Assembly (NCBI GenBank): GCA_951406725.2 | Contig: OX597823.1 | Coordinates: 92,566,001 to 92,630,000 of the forward strand | Direction of reading: 5' to 3' | Length of the DNA stretch: 64,000 nt | Origin: Octopus vulgaris | Lineage: Eukaryota | Shown here: positions 4,756 through 58,600 of the stretch, one piece after another | Layout of the letters: each line of letters opens with the position of its first letter | Numbering within the stretch: the first letter of the stretch is position 1 | The notes under the pieces: model-generated | What the model was told of the DNA's origin: nothing | The model's database searches: none | The model's input: only the letters and a program-made list of their open reading frames with translations | Made by a program: the position numbers and the translations under genes

Positions 4756-5610
4756 GTTTAGAGAGAGAACAAACATACACAGAATGTTATTACTGAAGTT
4801 TTTTGTGAAATATAGCCAAAAATTTTAGCCGTCACTGCTTTTATAAAAAAAAAATATATAATTACTCGATACATGAGATTATGGTAGATATTTGCATCGA
4901 TATTTTCTATACAACTACACGGTTGACAAGGGAGCAATTGGATACTGCTGTTTTTGGTTTATTTATTCTCATCAGTGATCGGTTTCCCTACATTTTAAAG
5001 CCACTATGAAAATCTCTTTAAATCAACTACCGTTAAGCTTATGACCAAATTGAATAGACTGAAGTCTCTCTCACGAGTGCTGATACCCATAAGACCGGAT
5101 TTTGCCCCGATTGCCATGGTGTATAAATCACTAAGATTATAACCACCACCAGCCCACTGGGTGGGACGCCGGTCACACACAAAGTAAAATCCCCAGTTAT
5201 GGCTATAACGTATTTACAGTTGAGTCTATTGGAACACCGTGAAGTGAAATGTTATGCTCAAGGATAAAATGCACCGCCCGATCCGGAAACTGAAACCCCA
5301 GTCTTACATTTGTGAGTGCAATAACCTAATCAAGAGCCGGAATTTGAACTCAGAACGTAGCGGCAGACGAAATACCGCTAAGCATTTCACCCGGCGTGCT
5401 AACGTGCTAACGATTCTGCCAGCTCATTGCCTAGAAAAGTGTGGCACTTTTCTACCGTCCTGTTGTACTTACCACATACGTTTCCGGGCTTAAATAATAC
5501 CACAGCATTCGTGAAGCGGTGGGAGCACAAGCACAAGACAAACACGCAAACGTATAAATAAATAGAAATACAGACACACATATGCGCGCACACACACACA
5601 CACACATAAT

Positions 5611-5711
<101 letters not shown>

Positions 5712-5925
5712 CAATAATAATTCTCTAAAAGGGATATAGACAGTAACTGCTCGATAACATAAGGGACTAAAGCCATCTGAATATGGCTAGGGACAGGGCA
5801 GGGTGGTGGGGGTGTTACTGTTGCATTTAGCCCCAGGCGAACATCGACGTCACCAGAAAGGCTCGACACCGTCACGGTGCCCTTAACCTGCAAAGGGAGG
5901 TAATTCCCCGATGAAGCGGAAACCA

Positions 5926-5971
5926 CACACGGACCATGGTTTCAAGGTGTATTGCCTATCATCGGCGTGTG
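5926..5971 (-). ncRNA. Type I hammerhead ribozyme (360-bp family); further copies at 6286-6331, 6646-6691, 7006-7051
   Basis: Reverse complement of the motif at 7162-7207. Confidence 0.8.
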
Positions 5972-7161
5972 GTAGGCCTCCGCTTCCTCGACGAATTCTC
6001 TCTCTGCAGGATCTTCTTATATAGATTTTCAAGCAAAATACATTTGCTGATTTCGAAAATCTGTTCGAAAGCAATAATAATTCTCTAAAAGGGATATAGA
6101 CAGTAACTGCTCGATAACATAAGGGACTAAAGCCATCTGAATATGGCTAGGGACAGGGCAGGGTGGTGGGGGTGTTACTGTTGCATTTAGCCCCAGGCGA
6201 ACATCGACGTCACCAGAAAGGCTCGACACCGTCACGGTGCCCTTAACCTGCAAAGGGAGGTAATTCCCCGATGAAGCGGAAACCACACACGGACCATGGT
6301 TTCAAGGTGTATTGCCTATCATCGGCGTGTGGTAGGCCTCCGCTTCCTCGACGAATTCTCTCTCTGCAGGATCTTCTTATATAGATTTTCAAGCAAAATA
6401 CATTTGCTGATTTCGAAAATCTGTTCGAAAGCAATAATAATTCTCTAAAAGGGATATAGACAGTAACTGCTCGATAACATAAGGGACTAAAGCCATCTGA
6501 ATATGGCTAGGGACAGGGCAGGGTGGTGGGGGTGTTACTGTTGCATTTAGCCCCAGGCGAACATCGACGTCACCAGAAAGGCTCGACACCGTCACGGTGC
6601 CCTTAACCTGCAAAGGGAGGTAATTCCCCGATGAAGCGGAAACCACACACGGACCATGGTTTCAAGGTGTATTGCCTATCATCGGCGTGTGGTAGGCCTC
6701 CGCTTCCTCGACGGATTCTCTCTCTGCAGGATCTTCTTATATAGATTTTCAAGCAAAATACATTTGCTGATTTCGAAAATCTGTTCGAAAGCAATAATAA
6801 TTCTCTAAAAGGGATATAGACAGTAACTGCTCGATAACATAAGGGACTAAAGCCATCTGAATATGGCTAGGGACAGGGCAGGGTGGTGGGGGTGTTACTG
6901 TTGCATTTAGCCCCAGGCGAACATCGACGTCACCAGAAAGGCTCGACACCGTCACGGTGCCCTTAACCTGCAAAGGGAGGTAATTCCCCGATGAAGCGGA
7001 AACCACACACGGACCATGGTTTCAAGGTGTATTGCCTATCATCGGCGTGTGGTAGGCCTCCGCTTCCTCGACGAATTCTCTCTCTGCAGGATCTTCTTAT
7101 ATAGATTTTCAAGCAAAATACATTTGCTGAGAGAGAATTCGTCGAGGAAGCGGAGGCCTAC

Positions 7162-7207
7162 CACACGCCGATGATAGGCAATACACCTTGAAACCATGGT
7201 CCGTGTG
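7162..7207 (+). ncRNA. Type I hammerhead ribozyme (360-bp family); further copies at 7521-7566, 7881-7926, 8241-8286
   Basis: cacacg CCGATGA t-agg-caataca-cct-t GAAA ccatgg TC cgtgtg. Helix I is cacacg/cgtgtg (6 bp, extendable to gaagcgga/tccgcttc), the core has U4C, helix II is agg/cct, helix III is the palindrome accatggt, and the GUC cleavage site falls after 7201. Confidence 0.8.
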
Positions 7208-8728
7208 TGGTTTCCGCTTCATCGGGGAATTACCTCCCTTTGCAGGTTAAGGGCACCGTGACGGTGTCGAGCCTTTCTGGTGACGTCGATGTTCGCCTGG
7301 GGCTAAATGCAACAGTAACACCCCACCACCCTGCCCTGTCCCTAGCCATATTCAGATGGCTTTAGTCCCTTATGTTATCGAGCAGTTACTGTCTATATCC
7401 CTTTTAGAGAATTATTATTGCTTTCGAACAGATTTTCGAAATCAGCAAATGTATTTTGCTTGAAAATCTATATAAGAAGATCCTGCAGAGAGAGAATCCG
7501 TCGAGGAAGCGGAGGCCTACCACACGCCGATGATAGGCAATACACCTTGAAACCATGGTCCGTGTGTGGTTTCCGCTTCATCGGGGAATTACCTCCCTTT
7601 GCAGGTTAAGGGCACCGTGACGGTGTCGAGCCTTTCTGGTGACGTCGATGTTCGCCTGGGGCTAAATGCAACAGTAACACCCCCACCACCCTGCCCTGTC
7701 CCTAGCCATATTCAGATGGCTTTAGTCCCTTATGTTATCGAGCAGTTACTGTCTATATCCCTTTTAGAGAATTATTATTGCTTTCGAACAGATTTTCGAA
7801 ATCAGCAAATGTATTTTGCTTGAAAATCTATATAAGAAGATCCTGCAGAGAGAGAATTCGTCGAGGAAGCGGAGGCCTACCACACGCCGATGATAGGCAA
7901 TACACCTTGAAACCATGGTCCGTGTGTGGTTTCCGCTTCATCGGGGAATTACCTCCCTTTGCAGGTTAAGGGCACCGTGACGGTGTCGAGCCTTTCTGGT
8001 GACGTCGATGTTCGCCTGGGGCTAAATGCAACAGTAACACCCCCACCACCCTGCCCTGTCCCTAGCCATATTCAGATGGCTTTAGTCCCTTATGTTATCG
8101 AGCAGTTACTGTCTATATCCCTTTTAGAGAATTATTATTGCTTTCGAACAGATTTTCGAAATCAGCAAATGTATTTTGCTTGAAAATCTATATAAGAAGA
8201 TCCTGCAGAGAGAGAATTCGTCGAGGAAGCGGAGGCCTACCACACGCCGATGATAGGCAATACACCTTGAAACCATGGTCCGTGTGTGGTTTCCGCTTCA
8301 TCGGGGAATTACCTCCCTTTGCAGGTTAAGGGCACCGTGACGGTGTCGAGCCTTTCTGGTGACGTCGATGTTCGCCTGGGGCTAAATGCAACAGTAACAC
8401 CCCCACCACCCTGCCCTGTCCCTAGCCATATTCAGATGGCTTTAGTCCCTTATGTTATATATATATATATATATATATATTCACTAAATTCGTTTACGGA
8501 AAACGCTTTTCAATATGCATATAAAAGCACCTATCAATGCCGGATACAGCCTAGTGATACCAAACTAGCAATAGCAATTTTGGTGGGGTTGCACCGAGCT
8601 GTAACGATGTAATATAGGATAACTATTGTAATAGTAATAATGATAATCCATGGATTTGATTTTAAATATCTTGATGTAACGCTACGCGCGAATAAATGAA
8701 TCGGAATATGTATATCCATCTGTAGATC

Positions 8729-10509: not shown

Positions 10510-11377
10510 CCTGTCCTTACTGCCCGCTGCCATCAGGAACGACTACAGTCTGCTACACAGCACATAGTGGCTACATCAACAATGGAGGTCGATAGTCTTC
10601 TTTGATGAGAGCTGGTACCACGTTCCCACCTCGAATATCAGATTGTGAGTGTAGCGTAGGAAATAATGAACGCTAGAGAGGCGCATGTGTCATAGAGAGA
10701 GGTGGCCAAGGCATCATGGTTTGGGGTGTTATAGACCTGAATCAGAGATTTGGGCCCATGTGTTCCAAAATGTTGGTGCAGGTAGAGGGAATGGCATCAC
10801 AGCGCAGGGCTAAGTTGCCCAGATCCTAAGACCTCACATCGAGCCCTTCTTTGCGCGCAACCATATACACGTGTTCCACCAGGACAATACTATCCACCAC
10901 ACGGCCAGAGAAACCATGAAATTCTTGTGACACCGCAACATCAGAACCAAGCCGTTGCTGTCTCTCAGCCCAGATATGGATCCAATTGAACCCTTGTGGG
11001 ATGAAATCCAGAGACAGCTGAACCAGGTGGTCCCAAGGCCGACAACTATGGTGGAACAGGAGGCAGCTTTCCTCAGGGTGTGGCGCATGTGCCATTGGCT
11101 TTTGTGAATCGCTTCATGAACTCCATGTACCGACGGTGTATGACCGTTTTGAATACCCAGGAAGAACATACACGGTATTGAACATGTCACGCTCTACAAT
11201 TTCGTTATGCTGTATCCGCCCACTATCAGAACACATAACAACGACCCATAGACTGTGGTCAAAGTGCATCCAAGAAACAGACGTTTTCTGAATTATCAAA
11301 ATTTATTTCTGACATAATGAAATTAAAACATATTTCACAGTGACACACGTCTCGCGCTTCCTTTGCGGTTCAGTGTA
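10510..11377 (+). mobile_element. Decayed Tc1-like (DD34E) DNA transposon, 3' part
   Basis: Translates FHQDNTIHHTARETMKFL*HRNIRTKPLLSLSPDMDPIEPLWDEI with 34 residues between D and E. Ends ...gcggttcagtgTA. Same family as 57468-58600. Confidence 0.85.
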
Positions 11378-27153: not shown

Positions 27154-27406
27154 TGTGTGTGTGTGAGTGTGTGGGTTCACTGTAATTCATTATATATAGC
27201 GTTCTATCCATGAGGGAGCGGTGTCAGTTTGGGTGTGTCGAAACGATCGTTGTGATAAACGTTCCAGTATATAACTTCCGTATCCGTTACCACTACTTAT
27301 ACTACTTGCCAAACCACTAAGTTACGGGGACGTAAACACACCATCATCGGTTGTGAAGTAATGGTGGGGGACAAACACATACACACAAACATATGCACAC
27401 ACAAAC

Positions 27407-28930
<1,524 letters not shown>

Positions 28931-28967
28931 ATATATACGACGAGCTTCTTTCACATGCATACATACT

Positions 28968-29026
<59 letters not shown>

Positions 29027-35428: not shown

Positions 35429-35462
<34 letters not shown>

Positions 35463-35463
<1 letters not shown>

Positions 35464-36558
35464 GCAATAATAATTCTCTAAAAGGGATATAGACAGTAAC
35501 TGCTCGATAACATAAGGGACTAAAGCCATCTGAATATGGCTAGGGACAGGGCAGGGTGGTGTGGGTGTTACTGTTGCATTTAGCCCCAGGCGAACATCGA
35601 CGTCACCAGAAAGGCTCGACACCGTCACGGTGCCCTAAACCTGCAAAGGGAGGTAATTCCCCGATGAAGCGGAAACCACACACGGACCATGGTTTCAAGG
35701 TGTATTGCCTATCATCGGCGTGTGGTAGGCCACCGCTTCCTCGACGAATTTTCACTCTGCAGGATTTTCTTATATAGATTTTCAAGCAAAATACATTTGC
35801 TGATTTCGAAAATCTGTTCGAAAGCAATAATAATTCTCTAAAAGGGATATAGACAGTAACTGCTCGATAACATAAGGGACTAAAGCCATCTGAATATGGC
35901 TAGGGACAGGGCAGGGTGGTGGGGGTGTTACTGTTGCATTTAGCCCCAGGCGAACATCGACGTCACCAGAAAGGCTCGACACCGTCACGGTGCCCTAAAC
36001 CTGCAAAGGGAGGTAATTCCCCGATGAGTTTCCGCTTCATCGGGGAATTACCTCCCTTTGCAGGTTTAGGGCACCGTGACGGTGTCGAGCCTTTCTGGTG
36101 ACGTCGATGTTCGCCTGGGGCTAAATGCAACAGTAACACCCCCACCACCCTGCCCTGTCCCTAGCCATATTCAGATGGCTTTAGTCCCTTATGTTATCGA
36201 GCAGTTACTGTCTATATCCCTTTTAGAGAATTATTATTGCTTTCGAACAGATTTTCGAAATCAGCAAATGTATTTTGCTTGAAAATCTATATAAGAAAAT
36301 CCTGCAGAGTGAAAATTCGTCGAGGAAGCGGAGGCCTACCACACGCCGATGATAGGCAATACACCTTGAAACCATGGTCCGTGTGTGGTTTCCGCTTCAT
36401 CGGGGAATTACCTCCCTTTGCAGGTTTAGGGCACCGTGACGGTGTCGAGCCTTTCTGGTGACGTCGATGTTCGCCTGGGGCTAAATGCAACAGTAACACC
36501 CCCACCACCCTGCCCTGTCCCTAGCCATATTCAGATGGCTTTAGTCCCTTATGTTATA
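35463..36558. mobile_element. Second palindromic copy of the 360-bp hammerhead unit, in (TA)n
   Basis: Left arm 35463-36027 (about 1.6 units), right arm 36028-36558 (about 1.5 units). Same outer termini as 5710-8458. HHRs at 35679-35724 (-) and 36340-36385 (+). Confidence 0.95.
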
Positions 36559-36724
36559 TATATATATATATACATGAAATACTAAAGAGTAAATTAAATC
36601 AATAAAATCGCCATTGGCTTTTGTGTTAGGTACGCTAGGTAAGTGCAGTAACGGATTACTAGGATTTCAAGGTTGTAACCGAGATGGTAGGCAAGGAACC
36701 AAAGCAGATTTCCGATATAGCGGA

Positions 36725-40543: not shown

Positions 40544-42613
40544 TCATAAACACTCCCACACACGAGTATATACATGGTTTGCATGTGTGTGTGTGTGTGT
40601 TCAATATATAATTTGTCAGACTTACAGTTGTTTATTGAATATCTTGTCTCAAAGATTTCTAATTGGCCTGAAAAATGTTCCTTTACTGCATTACCTCATA
40701 CGATATTCCTCTCATTTAATACAATCGTGACACATATTAGGTTTGCCTACTCGTTCTAGCATATCGATAGCATACTTAGAGGAATCCACGTTCACTTATT
40801 ATTTCAAGTTATTACTAAAATTTTTTAGTCCGATGTTGAAAGGTGATCTACTTTTAGTAATTCCCTTGTGTACAACCAATCAGTATAAATAGTATTTCTA
40901 ATCAGATGGTCGTTGTTTTGCAATCACTACCAGCAGATCTCTTATTTAATGTAATTTTCGTGTACTTCCTGGACCATGGACACAGAAAGCTGACTGGAAT
41001 TACTTCATGTATAAGTCTGATGCTTTGCAAAATTTCTTACAGTTGACACTTATCCATCTTAGATGATATTTTGTTATGTAATAATTCATGACTTGTTGCG
41101 TATATGATGTGACGTCTGCGACAAATTTTGAATACCATTCTCTTTGACAGTATCTAGAATAAAATTCTCCTACGGCATGCTGGTCTGCCTCCCATGATGT
41201 AAAAGTGCATTGATAGAAATGTATGTTTGTTTGGGATACATGCATATGGTAGATAGCAACAGACTCCCCTTACAACTCCTTTAGTCCCAAATATAGACGG
41301 GGGAAAAGAAACCAAGGAAAACCTAGACTGAGATCCAAAGATACTGCTAAAAGGAACATGAAGTGGAAAGGAATTGATCCTAAGTGACCAGTATTCAGAA
41401 AGCTGATCAACTAATGAAGAGTGACAGTCGCGGCCACTCACTACAGAAAATAAGGAATGTCATGGATTTTAGACAAGGCAAATTTTTACTGCGAATAAAT
41501 AAACTCGTTTCTCAAACCACGGCATATAACATAATTCAGTCAGCAAATTTCAATGATTTATTTATGGGCATATTGAAAATACTGACAGAAAATGCCTTAA
41601 TTTTACTCAACGTGACAAACATTGATATTTATGTGATTGTCGCATTAATATTCGTTGTGAAAATTGCGTCGATAATTTGGCGAAAGAAAATTCCAAACAC
41701 AAGCATATACAACTAACGAAGTTGTAAAAGACATATAAGGAAATATATTGCGGAATTTACCAGATAATGATTAAGTGAACTCACAGGACACACACAAACG
41801 TGTGTGTATATTTTCCCATATTCATTTATTTATGTGTATACGTATGTATATTTATAGCTGAGTAAACTGGAGCAGACGTGAAACGCAGCTCTTGGATCAA
41901 AAACACAACAGACCGCCGGTCTGAGAATCGAAACAACGCGAACGCCCGCCTTCACATATATACTGGAACTGTATATTCTTTCAGCAATATGTAGACATGA
42001 AAAAGATCGACAGAGACAAGACAAATTTTAGAACTTCCAAACAGAGATGATTGTTCTGTTTGTTCAACTCGCAATTACCAAACATTTCATTCTAAAACTC
42101 GCCCTCAGAAAGATTGTCGACTTTTCATTGATTCATTTGGAGACATGAAACAGACGATGCCATTGGTCACCAAATACCATAAACACAGTAAAACCAGTTC
42201 TTTGAAAATTGGGATATGTTCATTAGATTCTATTGAATGCATTTACAGTCTTTATTTCAAATTTGTAAAACTACTGAAATGCATAATGGATGATTGTAAG
42301 ATATTATTTCAAGAAAACGTGACAATAATTTAGATCCTCAAGCTGAATGTATCGTTATGGTCACCTATGTACCTCAGAGATTTGGTATGGCATAGAGAAT
42401 TGCAAAAATAACACATATTTGAGGAGGGAGGTTATTGGAAAGTACAAACCAAGATCGACTACTGACTTTGGTGAGTTTACTCGTATGGAGCCTCACAGCC
42501 ATTTGAGGTTTCAGAAAAATCACGTTGTGATTCCATAAGTAAATATTATTAGGAATTGTATAGAAAAAAAAAACAACGTTAAAATGTATTGTGTATTTTA
42601 GAAATATAACCAA

Positions 42614-43007
42614 TTATTTTCTACTCTAGGCACAAGACCCGAAAGTTTTGGGGAGGAAGCCAGTCGATTAGATGGACCCCAGTACGTTACTGGTACTTAG
42701 TTTATTGACCCTGAAAGGATGCAAAGCAAAGGCGATCTCTGTGGAATTTGAACTCTGAACGTAAAGACAGACGAAATACCTATTTCTTTACTACCCACAA
42801 GGGGCTAAACACAGAGAGAACAAAGAAGGACTGACAAACAGATTAAGTCGATTACCCCAGTGCGTAAATGGTACTTATTTAACCGACCCCGAAGGGATAA
42901 AAGGCAAAGTCGACCGTGGCGGAATTTGAACTCAGAACGTAACGGCAGACGAAATACCGCTTAGCATTTCGCCCAGCGGGCTGACCATTTTGTCAGCTCA
43001 CCGCCTT
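42614..43007 (-). mobile_element. SINE family B, internally duplicated copy
   Basis: Minus strand ggcggtgagctgacaaaatggtcagc...gagttcaaattccgcc..ggtcgactttgccttt; the core is present twice. Confidence 0.85.
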
Positions 43008-44388
43008 AATACAATCAATCTATTGAACATAAAACTTTAATACCAAAATCTAATATAGACCTCGGTTGAAAATCACAACATTAAAGCCTTGTTCTATCAT
43101 ATTTGAGTAATTTATTTTCGAGGACTGAATTTACGATGCTAGCTTATTTACCTTAATAACTCCTTCACGAAAGCAACAACGTAGGAGAAATGGTTAGCGC
43201 GTAGGTCAAACTTCTTTGCTGCATTCCTACCTCTGTCTTAACGTATCGATTTCCAGTGCAGTCGAAATTAACCTTACCTTTAATTATATGAGTGACGATA
43301 AAATAAGGTACCACTGAGGTCAATTCAATTGATTTTTCAGGTACATACCGTCAGTAATTACTCAGGGTAGGCAGTTGGCGACCGTTATGTAGTAAACCGC
43401 ACAATAAAACATAAATGAAACACAGATATGCGACTGAGATGAAGGCAGATTTGCTCCTGCCTTTAAAGCACGTAAAGAAAACGTTGTTGTAGAAAGGTGC
43501 TCAGCACGTTTACTACAGCAGTTCTATGCGTAGCTTTAATACTGAGATTGAAAGGCAAGGGCGAATTATGCCTACCTTATCTACAAAAACTAAAACATTT
43601 TGCATTTTATGCATAGTAATCAGAGTAACCTTCATAATTTTATTGAATTAGGTGCATATTTTGCCATAAAAGGAAAATATTACTCTCGATCTATTTTATT
43701 CAGGATAGGCATTTTGCTTTCACCCTGCCTACCTAGGCGGTATGTCTCTGCCTCCTTCCCTCCTTTCAGAATTACTTGTCTTCTGCCAAAATTACAAAGA
43801 ATTTTTAACAGTTGGAAAATTATCCCACAAAAATGAAAATACCAAATGTAAACTTTTTCTGCTTTAAATGCGCTTATAACCCCCTAAAAATTATATATCG
43901 CTTTGGTCATCTTTCTAACAGCTTATCATTTATGTCCACCGAACACGAAATTATAGAAATGATTCGTGAATATCTAGTCCAGCCACACTGGACACAGAAC
44001 GAAGAATAAATTTCTCGAAATTTTATTAGAAAATCGGGTCTAATTTACTTTTACAATTCATTTGAAAAATGCGACAGAAACCATTTGAATTAATGTAAAT
44101 TGATATTGATTGGAAACAGAGGTGAATTAAATTAACTTGTGGTTATAATTCCGATTGTTGTGAGGAAGATAAAAATTAAGACATCTGTAGTTCTTACCTG
44201 ACAAAATTACATGTGCGTGTCTAATACAAAAATATCCCTCAGAAATACATTTAAGTCTATTTCTCTTTTTACTTTTCGTTGCTGGCTTTTTTTGTCTTGC
44301 TCTGAAAACCATACTAAAATTCTATGAACTATGCATATATAGCACAAATAAACGCACACAAATACAAACACACGCGCGTATGCTCACA

Positions 44389-47613: not shown

Positions 47614-48064
47614 ATATGATATAATCCGTATACTAAAAATGCTTCAAGACGGAACAAAGCTGCAACAGCACATATCTATCTAATTTATGGCACATTTGTT
47701 TACATAACTTTACTTATTTTTGTGAAAATAGTTAAGTCACAAAGCAATGGTTGATGGATGGTGCGTTATGGTTTTAATGAAGAGTGCTTCCAGAAGTAAA
47801 GGTATTTGCCTCGGAACTGTACAAAATACGACAAACAACGAAGTAGGTTGTACATGAAGTACAAAAGACAAAGGTAGCATTTATATTGGTTACAAATTTT
47901 GACACAAAGTCAGTACCTTCTGGGGTGAGGTTTAATCGATCACAACGACCCCAGTAATAAACTGCAACTTACCTTATTGAGCCTCGAAAGGAGCAAATGT
48001 AAAGTCGACCTCGGCGGTTTTGAAATTGGAAAGTAAAGGCGAACGAAATGTCGCTAAGCTATCA

Positions 48065-48463
48065 ATTCTTTTCTACTCTAGGTACAAGGCCCGAAAGTTT
48101 TGGGGGGGTACCAGTCGATTAGATTGACTCCCGTACGCAACAGGTACTTAATTCATCGATCCCGAAAGGATGAAAAGCAAAGTCGACATCGGCAGAATTT
48201 GAACTCAGAACGTAAAGACAGACGAAATATCTATTTCTTTACTACCCTCAAGGGGATAAAAACAGAGAGGACAAACAAGGACAGACAAACGAATTAAGTC
48301 GATTATATCTACCCCAGTGCGTAACTGGTACTTATTTAATCGGCCCCGAAAGGATGAAAGGCAAAGTCGACTCGGCGGAATTTGAACTCAGAACGTAGCG
48401 GCAGACGAAATAGGGCTACGCATTTAGCCTGGCGTGCTAACGTTTCTGCCAGCTTACTGCCTT
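48065..48463 (-). mobile_element. SINE family B, internally duplicated copy
   Basis: Collinear with 42614-43007 and 53552-53940. Confidence 0.85.
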
Positions 48464-48959
48464 ACACCAACAGAAAATTAATATTGCTGCTAATGCATAG
48501 AACTTTAAAAAGGATTTGCAGCAATTATATCGTAACCAAGGAATTTTACTCATATTCTATAATGTAGTCATGCAAAATCATCATTCGCTAAACGAGGAAT
48601 TATTTTACTGCATTTAACACGTGCACTTCGTTTCTGTTTGAGCATATCGTTTTTCACCCAGACCTGATATCAATACACGCACATCCAACATTTATGTATA
48701 TACGCGTATATGTATGTATTGCATGACTTCATATAGTGAATTTGTATTCATACTTTCGCAGACACACACACACATACACTCACACACAAAGTCACATTAC
48801 ATTCATATATATACATGCATGCATATATATATATATATATATATTTATAAACATATCTATATGTGTACCCCGCGCCCTCTCTCTCTCATACAGATTCATA
48901 CAAACTTAGTTAAACTTAGATATGTTTCGACCGAAGATGTCTAACTTAATAGCACCACC

Positions 48960-52915: not shown

Positions 52916-53551
52916 ATATGCTTATGTATCTCTCTCTCTATATATATATATATATTCTTCTTTATAGTGGTGCTCGATACAATATAGCAATATATCCTAA
53001 CGGCCGTATTAGGGATGCATACATAAACACACACACACATACGCGCGCACACACACTGATGCACACACACCCCGACGCATACACACGTACATATATATAC
53101 ATATACATATTTGTATATACACTTTTATATACGTGCACACGCACAAAGAACGAAATAATGAAGACACACAAAACCTATCTCTTTAGTTATACCATATTTT
53201 CTTTACACGGCTTTCAGTAATAGTTTAAAGACGTCTGTTACAAAATGTGTTGTGAAAAGTCATTCGGTGCCTCATATTCAGAATAGAATATCGTGAAAAA
53301 AAACATTGCACTTTGCCCCCGCCCCTCAAAAAAAATTACTTAGTATTTTGAGTAATTATGTAAAATAGACAAACTAAACGATAATTAATGTTACAGCTCA
53401 CTATGAATATATTCAAATTTATCATTTGACCGCGGCCATGCTGGGGCACCACTTTGGAGTTGAAGAAATCGATCCAGTACATTTTCCCCAAGTATCTGTC
53501 TTTTTTTAACGAAAGGCTAAATTACAGGACGTAGACAAACCAACACTGATT

Positions 53552-53940
53552 TATTTCTTTATAGACCACAGAGTGCTAAACATAGAAGGGACAAACAAGG
53601 ACAGACAAGGAGATTAAGTCGATTACATCGACCCCAGTGATTAACTGGTATTTAATTTATCGACTCCGAATGGACGAAGGGCAAAGTCAACCTCGGCGGA
53701 ATTTGAACTCAGAACTTAACGGCAGACGAAATACCTATTTCTTTACTACCCACAAGGGGCTAAACACAGAGAGGACAAACAAGGACAGACAAACGGATTA
53801 AATCGATTACATCGACCCCAATGCGTAACTGGTACTTATTTAATCGACCCCGAAAGGATGAAAGGCAAAGTCGACCTCGGCGAAAGTTGAACTCAGAATG
53901 TACCGGCTGACGAAATTCCGTTAGGCATTTAGCCCGGCGT
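53552..53940 (-). mobile_element. SINE family B, internally duplicated copy
   Basis: Two copies of ggacaaacaaggacagacaa...gaaaggcaaagtcgacctcggcg. Confidence 0.85.
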
Positions 53941-55796: not shown

Positions 55797-56011
55797 CGGC
55801 GTTGAGCTGGCAGAAACATTAACGCGCCAGGCGAAATGCTTAGCTGTATTTCGTCTGTCGTTACGTTCTGCGTTCATATTCCGCCTTTCATCCTTTCGGG
55901 GTCGATAAATAAAGTACCAGTTTCGCAATGGGGTCTATGTAATCGACTTTATTCCTTTGTCTGTCCTTGTTTGTACCCTCTATGTTTAGCCCCTTGAGGG
56001 TAGTAAAGAAA
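55797..56011 (+). mobile_element. tRNA-derived SINE family B (core resembles the Meta-SINE domain)
   Basis: ggcgttgagctggcagaaac head; gcctttcatcctttcggggtcgataaataaagtaccag core. Confidence 0.85.
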
Positions 56012-56295
56012 TATGGACTCTCCTTAACTTATTAGATAAATACAAAATAGATTTAGGGGTGTCAGTTTTTGTTTTACCAGAGTAAAAACGTATAATAAAT
56101 ACATTTATTTACTATTGTATTTTTATTCTTATTGAACTCTATTTGAACACAAAAATGTAATGGTATATCTTTATTCTATCTTAGACGATATTCTACTTTA
56201 TAGTGATTCATTTATTTTAATTAACATTTTAAAAGTCTGAATCGAAACAGGTGTCAGGGATTATGTCTATGTTTGTAATAAATAAATATCACACC

Positions 56296-56710
56296 GGCGC
56301 AGGAGTGGCTGTGCGGTAATTAGCTTGTTCACCAACCCCATAGTTCCGGGTTCAGTCCCACTGCGTGGCGCTTTGAGCAAGTGTCTTCTACTTTAGCTTC
56401 GGGCCGACCAAAGTCTTGTGAGTGGATTTGCTACACGGAAACTGAAAGAAGCCCGTCGCATATATGTATATATATCTGTGTGTGTGTATGCTTGCGTATC
56501 TATTTGTCCCCTCCCCCACAACATCGCTTGACATCCGATGCTGGTGTGTTTACGTCCCCGTAACCTAGCGGTTCAGCAAAAAGATCCCGATAGAATAAGT
56601 ATTAGGCTTACAAAGAATAAGTCCTGGGGTCGATTTGCTCGACTAAAAGGTGGTGTTCCAGCATGGCTGCAGTCAAATGACTGAAACAAGTAAAACAATA
56701 AAAAGGAATA
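56296..56710 (+). mobile_element. tRNA-derived SINE family A, full length
   Basis: Collinear with 28527-28930. Confidence 0.9.
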
Positions 56711-56742
56711 AAAAATTGATTTATCTTATTTTACTTATTTTT

Positions 56743-56830
<88 letters not shown>

Positions 56831-57467: not shown

Positions 57468-58600
57468 TACACTGAACCGCAAAACAAACGCGAGACGGGT
57501 GTGACTGTGAAATGTTTTAATTTCATTATTTCAGAGACAAATTTTGATAAATCTGATGAAGTCAATTTATTAGTTGCACTTTGACCACACTCTACGGGTC
57601 GTTGTCATGTGTGCTGGTAGTGGGCGGATACAGCATATCGAGATTGTAGGGCGTGACGTGTTCAATATTGTGTATGCCCTTCATGGTTGTTCAAAACGGC
57701 CATACACCATCGGTACGTGGAATGCATGAAGCGGTTCACAAAAACGAATGGCACTTGTGCCCACATACTGAGGAAAGCTGCTTCCAGTTCCATACGTGTT
57801 GTCGGCCGTCTCTGGATTTCATCTCACAAGTGTTCAATTGGGTTCAAATCCGGACTGAGAGCTAGCCACGGCATAGTTCGTATGTTGTGCTGACGCAGGA
57901 AGTCCGTGGTTTCCCTGGCTGTGTGGGAAGTGACACTGTCCTGCTGGTGACGCACGAAGAAGGGCACAAAGTGAGGTCTTAGGATCTGGTCAACGTAGCC
58001 CTGCGCTGCTATGCCATTCCCTCTGCCTGCACCAACATATGGGGCCTAATACTCTGATTCAGGTTTATAGTACCCCAAACCATGATGCTTTGACCACCAC
58101 ACGCGTCTCTCCATGACACATGTTCTCTGTAGCGTATACACTCACACCCTCCTCCTGCCATCAGAGATGGAAACGCAGTACTGGCTCTCGTCAAAGAAGA
58201 CTATCGACTACTATTGCTGATGCGGCCAATGTTGCCTCTGTGTAGCCACCTAACAGTGCCGGGCGGTGAGGACAAGCCTCGAGCAGGACGACGACAACGC
58301 AGGTTGTTGACTCCCAGTCGAAGTCATTCTATATCGTCACCGATGGGTCGTTGTCCAGTGCCAATCCTGGCCGGTCTGAAGCGATCACGGAGGTGTTTCA
58401 GGTGGATGAAGCGCTCCTGCGTGGGCATGGTCACCTACGTGCACGGTCTGCAGTGCTAATTGGGTTGTTGTATCACTCTTGCCGGCGATATATGGTGCTG
58501 ACATGAACACTGTACGCTTTCCCAACAACCAGAGCACGCTGCCTTGTTTACAATCGGCCAATAACTTGGTCTCTTTGCGCAGCTGCCAATCGGGTCATAC
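57468..58600 (-). mobile_element. Decayed Tc1-like transposon
   Basis: End TAcactgaaccgcaaa. Homologous to 10510-11377 (GGQSIMVWG, SPDLNPIEHL motifs). Disrupted. Confidence 0.85.

What the first reader, a model, noticed from the sequence alone, without database searches (positions are those of the whole stretch)
35463..36558. Independent second insertion with the same two outer termini but a different internal junction
Seen: both loci start (TA)n|agcaataataattctc and end agtcccttatgttat|(TA)n. These are two fixed sense-strand 3' endpoints about 45 nt apart, and neither is at the predicted ribozyme cut site. The central junctions differ (7129 versus 36027/36028) and the loci differ by about 4 fixed substitutions per unit. 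Known: Penelope copies with inverted pLTRs carry a short extension (tail) on one repeat. Inference: priming sites are sequence-specified, 5' truncation is random, and the family was recently active. This also argues against an assembly artefact.
Basis: partly seen in the sequence, partly recalled or inferred. Interest (0 to 1): 0.7.

Follow-up and report, generated by a model that had tools for sequence, protein, structure and literature searches.

The report
Head-to-head hammerhead retrozyme insertion, Penelope-style
A small non-coding repeat with a self-cutting RNA motif sits in a TA microsatellite as two back-to-back copies, in the pattern left by Penelope-like jumping genes; the parts are known, but the two halves look copied from one template, a clue to how such inverted insertions form.

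Summary
At 35464-36557 and 5711-8458 a 360-nt unit lies as two head-to-head arms in (TA)n. One arm ends at unit position 1, the other at 44 (a 43-nt one-sided tail); flanks are unrelated and the loci differ at 4 fixed positions. Each unit has a type I hammerhead (U4C core) cutting 178 and 221 nt upstream of these ends. This is a metazoan non-LTR retrozyme with the known Penelope-like (PLE) signature: inverted 5'-truncated copy, one-sided tail, AT-rich target. For one PLE the tail is shown to lie between two reverse-transcription start sites. Truncation is not simply random. Within each locus both arms stop within 46 and 9 nt of each other on the template, and a rare variant is mirrored in the third unit of both locus-1 arms, so the arms share one template. 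Locus 2 stops 8-17 nt short of a ribozyme cut. Fixed ends beyond these two loci were not established: the read test was inconclusive, no genome was held, and no PLE partner was found. Verdict: a new member of a known kind with a useful mechanistic handle.

The parts
35430..35463 (.). Left target: compound microsatellite (CA)8(TA)9; last A can belong to template or target
   Evidence: sequence
35464..36027 (-). Locus 2 left arm, 564 nt (unit 1-360 then 1-204); RNA-sense on minus strand, 3' end at 35464
35464..35506 (-). 43-nt one-sided tail (unit 1-43), absent from the outer end of the right arm
35679..35724 (-). Type I hammerhead, U4C core, U-U at base of 3-bp stem II, 2-bp stem III with palindromic tetraloop; predicted cut 3' of C at 35685
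   Evidence: descriptor scan; cleavage not shown
36027..36036 (.). Head-to-head (5'-5') junction 36027|36028, no microhomology; 9-nt spacer 36028-36036 (unit 213-205) belongs to the right arm
36028..36557 (+). Locus 2 right arm, 530 nt (unit 213-1 then 360-44); RNA-sense on plus strand, 3' end at 36557, no tail
36340..36385 (+). Second hammerhead copy of locus 2; predicted cut 3' of C at 36379
36558..36572 (.). Right target: (AT)n tract; no target-site duplication can be resolved inside the microsatellite
5611..5710 (.). Locus 1 left (TA)50 target, preceded by (CA)n
5711..7130 (-). Locus 1 left arm, 1420 nt, 3.9 units, 4 hammerheads (cut C at 5932, 6292, 6652, 7012), with tail; variant at 6714
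7129..8458 (+). Locus 1 right arm, 1330 nt, 4 hammerheads (cut C at 7201, 7560, 7920, 8280), no tail; mirrored variant at 7498; 1-nt deletion near 7320
8459..8480 (.). Locus 1 right (AT)n target

Best explanation
A non-autonomous, non-coding hammerhead retrozyme was inserted at two independent (TA)n sites by the RT and GIY-YIG endonuclease of a Penelope-like element acting in trans. Inferred steps: the enzyme nicks both strands of the TA tract; the two target 3' ends prime reverse transcription at two fixed internal sites 43 nt apart on a multimeric (or circular) retrozyme RNA; the two cDNAs point away from each other and are joined at their 3' ends, giving a head-to-head palindrome with a tail on one side. 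Both arms come from one template molecule. Among sub-models I put twin priming on one linear multimer RNA at about 0.5, snap-back copying of the first cDNA at about 0.3, and later homogenisation of independent arms at about 0.2. Shown: the anatomy, the ribozyme motif, the coupling of the arms. Inferred: RNA intermediate, PLE enzyme, order of events.
For: Hammerhead descriptor: 10 hits in 64 kb, all 10 in the element, 0 of 2000 Markov shuffles of the unit. Its weak stems resemble axolotl HHR_Amex2 as described in PMC7229834. Unit fold z = -4.5, 0 of 100 shuffles as good. None of the 18 substitution positions listed for 4 runs falls in unit 177-286, which holds the ribozyme (P about 0.001 for 110 nt, 0.08 for the 47-nt motif alone). 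Architecture matches the PLE description 'inverted 5'-truncated copy, 30-40 bp tail often at one end, (TA)n targets' (PMC8557442; PMC3846280). In vitro, a PLE cuts and extends both strands of AT-rich DNA and starts RT at two internal sites that bound the tail, away from the ribozyme cut (PMC11167929). Coupling: template ends differ by 46 and 9 nt while the loci differ by about 850 nt (P 0.002-0.004 for uniform truncation over 1.5-2 kb, 0.057 over 360 nt). The unit-284 variant occurs in 2 of 8 locus-1 units, at mirror positions, and has no row in the variant table of 4 runs. In locus 2 the blunt junction and the spacer in the tail-less arm fit a jump onto a second, separate cDNA better than simple snap-back. 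The unit is held in 20 of 24 listed runs, 8 studies and is polymorphic in X1 (1351 contigs laid).
Against: Only 2 loci. The read test showed no (TA)n-bearing loose end among the 8 shown (61 hidden), no strand-changing joint, and no place where many molecules end. Rough depth in X1 shows one step near unit 1 and none at unit 44, where the model expects two. No PLE protein: 0 Pfam hits in 149 frames of the window, and no genome to search. Rfam finds no hammerhead at gathering or E<=5 thresholds. The core is U4C, and the active stem I register has pair probability 0.22 against 0.49 for a slipped one. The tail (43-47 nt) is longer than the 30-40 bp reported. The AC-rich loop lies 45-65 nt from the nearer end rather than at it. 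Palindromes can homogenise and lose their centres after insertion, which could mimic coupling (own knowledge).
Confidence: 0.8

Rival explanations
1. Snap-back route (same element and enzyme, different geometry): one cDNA is primed at unit 1, possibly by rolling-circle copying of a circular monomer, folds back on itself, is copied back, and the hairpin is resolved by the endonuclease 43 nt short of the first priming site.
For: Explains the mirrored variant as one RT error and the near-equal arms. All 8 locus-1 units share alleles that are in the minority in X1 at unit 291 and 303. Locus 1 has a 5-of-6 self-priming match with the loop in the tailed arm. Self-priming is the reading given in PMC3846280, and endonuclease resolution of the tail in PMC8557442.
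Against: In locus 2 the spacer lies in the tail-less arm and there is no homology; this needs a later central deletion or spacer flip. Two RT start sites bounding the tail were seen directly in vitro (PMC11167929).
Confidence: 0.27
2. The arms were made independently from two RNAs with random truncation, and symmetry and the mirrored base arose later by hairpin repair, gene conversion, central deletion or assembly polishing.
For: A 1.3-kb perfect palindrome is prone to such events (own knowledge). Locus 2 arms carry 2 unshared substitutions. Junctions were not seen in the runs laid.
Against: Both loci are near-symmetric. The variant is confined to one unit per arm although 6 other identical units could have converted it. 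The 1-nt deletion in locus 1 and the two locus 2 differences were not homogenised.
Confidence: 0.15
3. Truncated PLE termini (pLTR monomers) inserted head-to-head and then grew into tandem arrays locally by unequal crossover, as proposed for retrozyme birth in 10.64898/2026.07.22.740005.
For: That preprint finds retrozymes related to pLTRs and suggests local amplification. Head-to-head truncated PLE ends are common (PMC4209133).
Against: Both arms would have to grow to the same unit number (4 and 4; 2 and 2) and carry the same variant in the same unit. No ORF remnant adjoins either arm.
Confidence: 0.07
4. A DNA-level element (foldback, MITE or Helitron-like) whose ends are the fixed termini and whose centre is deleted variably.
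For: Long inverted repeats, TA flanks, identical ends in both copies.
Against: The two ends are different sequences offset by 43 nt, so there is no terminal inverted repeat for a transposase. Every full unit carries a hammerhead. Polarity is 3'-outward on both sides.
Confidence: 0.04
5. Assembly or amplification artefact (fold-back chimera).
For: Perfect palindromes are a known artefact class (own knowledge). No run laid showed the junctions.
Against: Flanks are unique and not inverted; two loci with distinct haplotypes share asymmetric ends; the unit is in runs of 8 studies.
Confidence: 0.03

Closest known systems
Metazoan non-LTR retrozymes (Cervera & de la Pena 2020, PMC7229834; Li, Clavereau & Pollet 2026, 10.64898/2026.07.22.740005)
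   Same: Non-coding tandem unit of 360 nt (mussel 350-390), under 50% GC, one type I hammerhead per unit with short stem III and palindromic loop, strongly self-paired; PLEs proposed as mobiliser.
   Different: Here the multimers sit head-to-head with fixed asymmetric ends and a tail. 'inverted' occurs 0 times in PMC7229834; 'tail' and 'head-to-head' 0 times in the 2026 preprint. Core is U4C. Cleavage and circles are untested.
EN+ Penelope-like elements (Penelope/Poseidon, Neptune, Naiad; PMC8557442, PMC3846280, PMC11167929, PMC2377424)
   Same: Inverted 5'-truncated copy joined head-to-head, one-sided tail, AT-rich or (TA)n target, hammerhead in the terminal repeat, ends away from the ribozyme cut.
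   Different: No ORF; the whole insert is repeat. Tail 43-47 nt against 30-40 (31 in Pen2a_Av, 34 in D. virilis). Hammerhead has a stem III, unlike the minimal PLE motif of PMC4209133; Naiads lack canonical hammerheads.
Non-autonomous Chlamys elements such as MRC1 (PMC8557442)
   Same: Non-coding PLE dependants, often inserted as multicopy head-to-tail runs.
   Different: Green-algal; the passages seen do not describe a hammerhead unit or mirrored multimer arms for them.

Membership tests
Non-LTR retrozyme | Tandem non-coding unit of about 150-450 nt, GC under 50% | tested here: met
   Period 360; 1-kb bins over locus 1 are 47-48% GC; the two frames tested inside locus 2 have no Pfam hit
Non-LTR retrozyme | Type I hammerhead in each unit | tested here: met
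   10 descriptor hits in the 10 segments that span unit 216-262, 0 of 2000 shuffles; the descriptor allowed U4C; Rfam does not detect it
Non-LTR retrozyme | Self-cleavage | not testable with these tools
   U4C lowers activity in vitro but is tolerated in a viroid (PMC3088659); only 1 of 9 Xenopus elements cleaved in the 2026 preprint
Non-LTR retrozyme | Expressed as linear and circular monomers | tested here: inconclusive
   390-nt cyclic contigs (360+30) in X4 and X20 fit a circle or a tandem DNA repeat equally; RNA status of X4 is a guess
Non-LTR retrozyme | No LTR, PBS or PPT | tested here: met
   The insert consists only of the unit; no separate terminal repeat; PBS and PPT were not searched for as motifs
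PLE-mobilised insertion | Inverted 5'-truncated copy joined head-to-head | tested here: met
   2 of 2 loci
PLE-mobilised insertion | 30-40 bp tail at one end | tested here: met
   One-sided extension in 2 of 2 loci, but 43-47 nt, slightly over the range
PLE-mobilised insertion | Two fixed 3' ends across the family | tested here: inconclusive
   2 of 2 loci in the window; contigs of 4 runs gave no usable termini
PLE-mobilised insertion | AT-rich or (TA)n target; TSD where resolvable | tested here: met
   4 of 4 ends abut (TA)n, which is 2.4% of the window; TSD not resolvable in a microsatellite
Autonomous PLE | ORF with telomerase-like RT and GIY-YIG endonuclease | tested here: not met
   No ORF over 180 aa anywhere in the window; 0 Pfam hits in 149 frames. 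The element is not itself a PLE
PLE-mobilised insertion | Autonomous partner in the genome sharing the recognised end | not testable with these tools
   No genome held
TIR DNA transposon / MITE | Matching terminal inverted repeats at both ends | tested here: not met
   Ends are offset by 43 nt and differ in sequence

The most novel reading that the evidence does not exclude
A PLE dimer binds one multimeric retrozyme RNA and reverse-transcribes it twice, from two start sites 43 nt apart, each primed by one strand of the cut (TA)n target; the cDNAs run to a common stop, in some cases the 5' end left by the slow U4C ribozyme (locus 2), and are joined end to end. Retrozyme insertions would then be an in vivo record of how the PLE inverted repeat and tail arise, would show linear partly cleaved multimers rather than circles as the template, and would show that arrays arrive as multimers.
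Probability: 0.3. Interest if true: 0.72.

Novelty: new member of a known kind. Interest (0 to 1): 0.45.

Why it matters
PLEs are only proposed as the mobilisers of animal retrozymes, on shared ribozymes, co-occurrence and pLTR similarity (PMC7229834; 10.64898/2026.07.22.740005). An insertion of pure retrozyme multimer that carries the PLE tail and inverted structure is direct structural evidence, and it argues that arrays can arrive as multimers instead of growing in place. How PLEs make inverted repeats is described as open (PMC8557442). Because the unit is repeated, private variants and arm lengths act as a ruler: a survey of this abundant family can separate twin priming, snap-back and later repair. 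Six literature searches returned no paper that describes this for retrozymes, but the library lacks most subscription papers, including key PLE reviews.

Tried and rejected
Whole-genome collection of copies: no genome held. Rfam: 0 hits at gathering level in 64 kb; 8 hits at E<=5 over locus 2, all below gathering and due to the palindrome or the microsatellite. Laying contigs of 4 of the 24 listed runs on one monomer (5835-6194): only the unit-to-unit joint is listed; 8 loose ends shown, none (TA)n, 61 hidden; no end clusters. Summed depth in X1 is roughly twofold higher at unit 22-94 than at unit 287-359, which fits 3' anchoring, but the tool says contig depth cannot rank parts, and no second step shows at unit 44; not used. 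In X4 a diverged contig (record 14) stops at 6070, the end-1 position, overlapping record 13 by 30 nt at about twice its depth; this may mark a third copy ending there, but it is one run and a variant lies at 6069; weak hint only. No RNA holder is listed on record. X15 and X20 hold one contig each at depth 3-8, which may be trace DNA, so spread between organisms is not claimed. Metagenome scans: 0 hits and 1 hit that is a 21-nt chance match in unrelated GC-rich DNA. Pfam: 0 of 149 frames (147 of the 184 that passed a length and complexity filter, plus 2 in locus 2). No tRNA gene. Earlier scan notes: nothing by sequence or in this genome. A guess from memory that the host is a cephalopod was not tested; the paper search on it was uninformative. 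Preference for compound (CA)n(TA)n targets: 2 of 2, against 12 of 44 TA tracts in the window that are compound (the 44 include the four insertion flanks); too few to claim. Segmental duplication, MITE or Helitron origin and fold-back artefact were considered and rejected (see rivals).

Full report
Observation. The window is AT-rich, microsatellite-rich DNA with no ORF over 180 aa. One 360-nt unit occurs in 12 segments, all within 5711-8458 (locus 1) and 35464-36557 (locus 2). Numbering the unit on the plus strand from 5711, each locus is a left arm starting at unit 1 and an inverted right arm whose outer end is unit 44, with (TA)n outside both. The offset is 43 nt, up to 47 given bases that fit either side. 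Locus 2 joins unit 204 to unit 213 at 36027|36028 with no overlap; locus 1 joins unit 340 to unit 294 with a 2-nt overlap inside a 5-of-6 match. The loci differ at four fixed positions and their 3-kb flanks share only one 92-nt, 73% piece at non-matching distances.

The unit. A descriptor scan of both strands gives 10 type I hammerheads, all in the element, and 0 in 2000 Markov shuffles of the unit. The motif has a 6-bp stem I, a U4C core, a 3-bp stem II with U-U at its base, and a 2-bp stem III under a palindromic tetraloop. It lies on the minus strand of left arms and the plus strand of right arms, so the junction is 5'-5' and both outer ends are RNA 3' ends, 178 and 221 nt downstream of the cut. 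Short palindromic stem III motifs are described as working as dimers (PMC4209133, abstract and Results), and the axolotl HHR_Amex2 has the same weak stems (PMC7229834, parts 2-4 of 6 and passages). U4C lowers activity in vitro but is tolerated in a viroid (PMC3088659, passages). Against activity: Rfam does not see it and the active register has pair probability 0.22 against 0.49 for a slipped one. The unit folds better than 100 of 100 shuffles (z -4.5). None of 18 substitution positions listed for four runs lies in unit 177-286. This is a non-LTR retrozyme by size, tandem arrangement and ribozyme; cleavage and circles are not shown.

Abundance. The insert is held in 20 of 24 listed runs from 8 studies and five organism codes. 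On one monomer, X1 gave 1351 contigs (632 at 99% or more, 486 at 95-99, 213 at 90-95, 20 below), X4 seven, X15 and X20 one each. X4 and X20 hold a 390-nt cyclic contig; the X4 one differs from the locus 2 unit at 1 of 360 positions. A cycle fits a tandem array as well as a circle, and X4 is only guessed to be RNA. The single low-depth contigs in X15 and X20 may be trace DNA.

The insertion pattern is that of Penelope-like elements. PMC8557442 (passages) describes an inverted 5'-truncated copy next to the element, a 30-40 bp tail often at one end only, and (TA)n as a preferred target of Naiads. PMC3846280 (passages) describes a 31-bp tail on one inverted pLTR and head-to-head palindromes; PMC2377424 (passages) a 34-bp repeat and inverted termini of variable size. 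PMC11167929 (parts 1-2 of 4; a term search of the supplement text held found nothing, and its Fig. S2 was not seen) shows that a PLE protein, predicted to be a dimer, cuts and extends both strands of AT-rich DNA and starts RT at two internal sites that bound the tail, independent of ribozyme cleavage. All of this matches, except that the tail here is a little longer and the AC-rich loop is not at the start sites. The element has no ORF and no partner was found: 0 Pfam hits in 149 frames, no genome to search.

On the multimer template locus 1 arms span 1-1420 and 44-1374, and locus 2 arms 1-564 and 44-573. Independent uniform truncation over 1.5-2 kb would give both loci within 46 nt with P 0.002-0.004, or 0.057 if only a 360-nt range is allowed; these are post hoc toy models. 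A substitution at unit 284 is in 2 of 8 locus-1 units, the third from the outer end in each arm (6714, 7498), and has no row in the variant table of four runs (no row does not prove absence). The locus 2 allele at unit 288 is likewise in both arms and unlisted. Locus 2 arms also carry two unshared substitutions, and locus 1 one unshared deletion. Locus 2 stops 17 and 8 nt short of a self-cleaved 5' end after crossing one cut site; locus 1 crosses four and stops 73 and 119 nt past the last. So run-off from cleaved RNA is possible for 1 of 2 loci; a stall in the long paired stem there is an alternative.

Mechanism. Best reading (0.8): PLE-driven, target-primed insertion of a retrozyme multimer with two fixed starts. 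Within it, twin priming on one linear multimer (about 0.5) explains the tail, mirrored variant, common stop and the blunt locus 2 junction whose spacer lies in the tail-less arm. A slow U4C ribozyme would leave such multimers uncut. Snap-back copying of one cDNA (about 0.3) explains locus 1 well and allows a circular template, but needs a later central rearrangement in locus 2. Later hairpin repair or polishing (about 0.2) cannot be excluded without reads. Local growth of arrays from inserted monomers, suggested in 10.64898/2026.07.22.740005 (parts 1-3 of 5 and a term search; supplements closed), fits these loci poorly because both arms have matching unit counts. Locus 2 has one ribozyme per strand and cannot release a monomer; each locus 1 arm could release three. 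Read-through of locus 2 would fold into a hairpin of about 530 pairs.

Results against or short of my reading. The family-wide test of fixed ends failed to give data: no strand-changing joint, no (TA)n loose end among 8 shown (61 hidden), no end clusters, and rough depth shows one step near unit 1 and none at 44. Only 4 of 24 runs and one monomer were laid, all as contigs. Presence or absence between individuals was not tested. Everything about termini rests on two loci.

Novelty. Retrozymes, PLE tails, inverted PLE ends and non-autonomous PLE multimers are each published. Searches (listings only, apart from the papers named) and term searches in PMC7229834, the 2026 preprint and the review PMC11722881 (passages) showed no description of retrozyme multimers inserted head-to-head with a tail, or of mirrored arms. 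The library omits most subscription papers. Earlier unchecked notes of this scan report similar PLE-pattern insertions of other non-coding repeats in TA tracts, which suggests the pattern is not rare; I did not check them. I file this as a new member of a known kind, interest 0.45, with the one-template twin-priming reading at probability 0.3.

Noticed in passing
window 6714 and 7498: The same substitution (unit 284) in the third unit of both arms of locus 1 and in none of its other six units.
   Followed up: yes
window 36027-36036: Locus 2 junction falls 8-17 nt short of the predicted self-cleaved 5' end, inside the long stem that extends hammerhead stem I.
   Followed up: partly
window 35430-35463 and about 5590-5710: In both loci the tail-bearing arm faces the (CA)n side of a compound (CA)n(TA)n microsatellite, and both loci have the same polarity; 12 of 44 TA tracts in the window are compound.
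   Followed up: partly
window 35660-35667 and 35713-35719 (unit 197-204 and 250-256): The sense RNA has a 7-nt complement of the hammerhead core about 20 nt downstream of the cut, which could block the ribozyme; the antisense strand carries a core-like CCGATGA...GAAAC look-alike that fails the descriptor.
   Followed up: no
window 35769-35776 minus strand (unit about 313-306): TATA-like motif about 50 nt upstream of the hammerhead in the sense direction; a possible internal promoter, untested.
   Followed up: no
run X4, records 12-14: Diverged relatives of the unit (about 90% alike, with longer unlike ends) point to at least one more subfamily; record 14 stops at the end-1 position.
   Followed up: partly
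window 53549-53940, 48063-48464, 42571-43008, 28171-29023, 27306-27953, 55798-56786 and others: 36 segments of other dispersed repeats, including a 184-nt two-copy tandem at 53552-53916; no tRNA head found; not identified.
   Followed up: no
window 10552-11377 and 57468-58246: Two segments of about 800 nt with one self-match each in the window, possibly a longer dispersed repeat.
   Followed up: no
L001 1345-1365: Exact 21-nt match to the hammerhead 3' part in GC-rich, bacterial-looking DNA; no further similarity, judged chance.
   Followed up: yes
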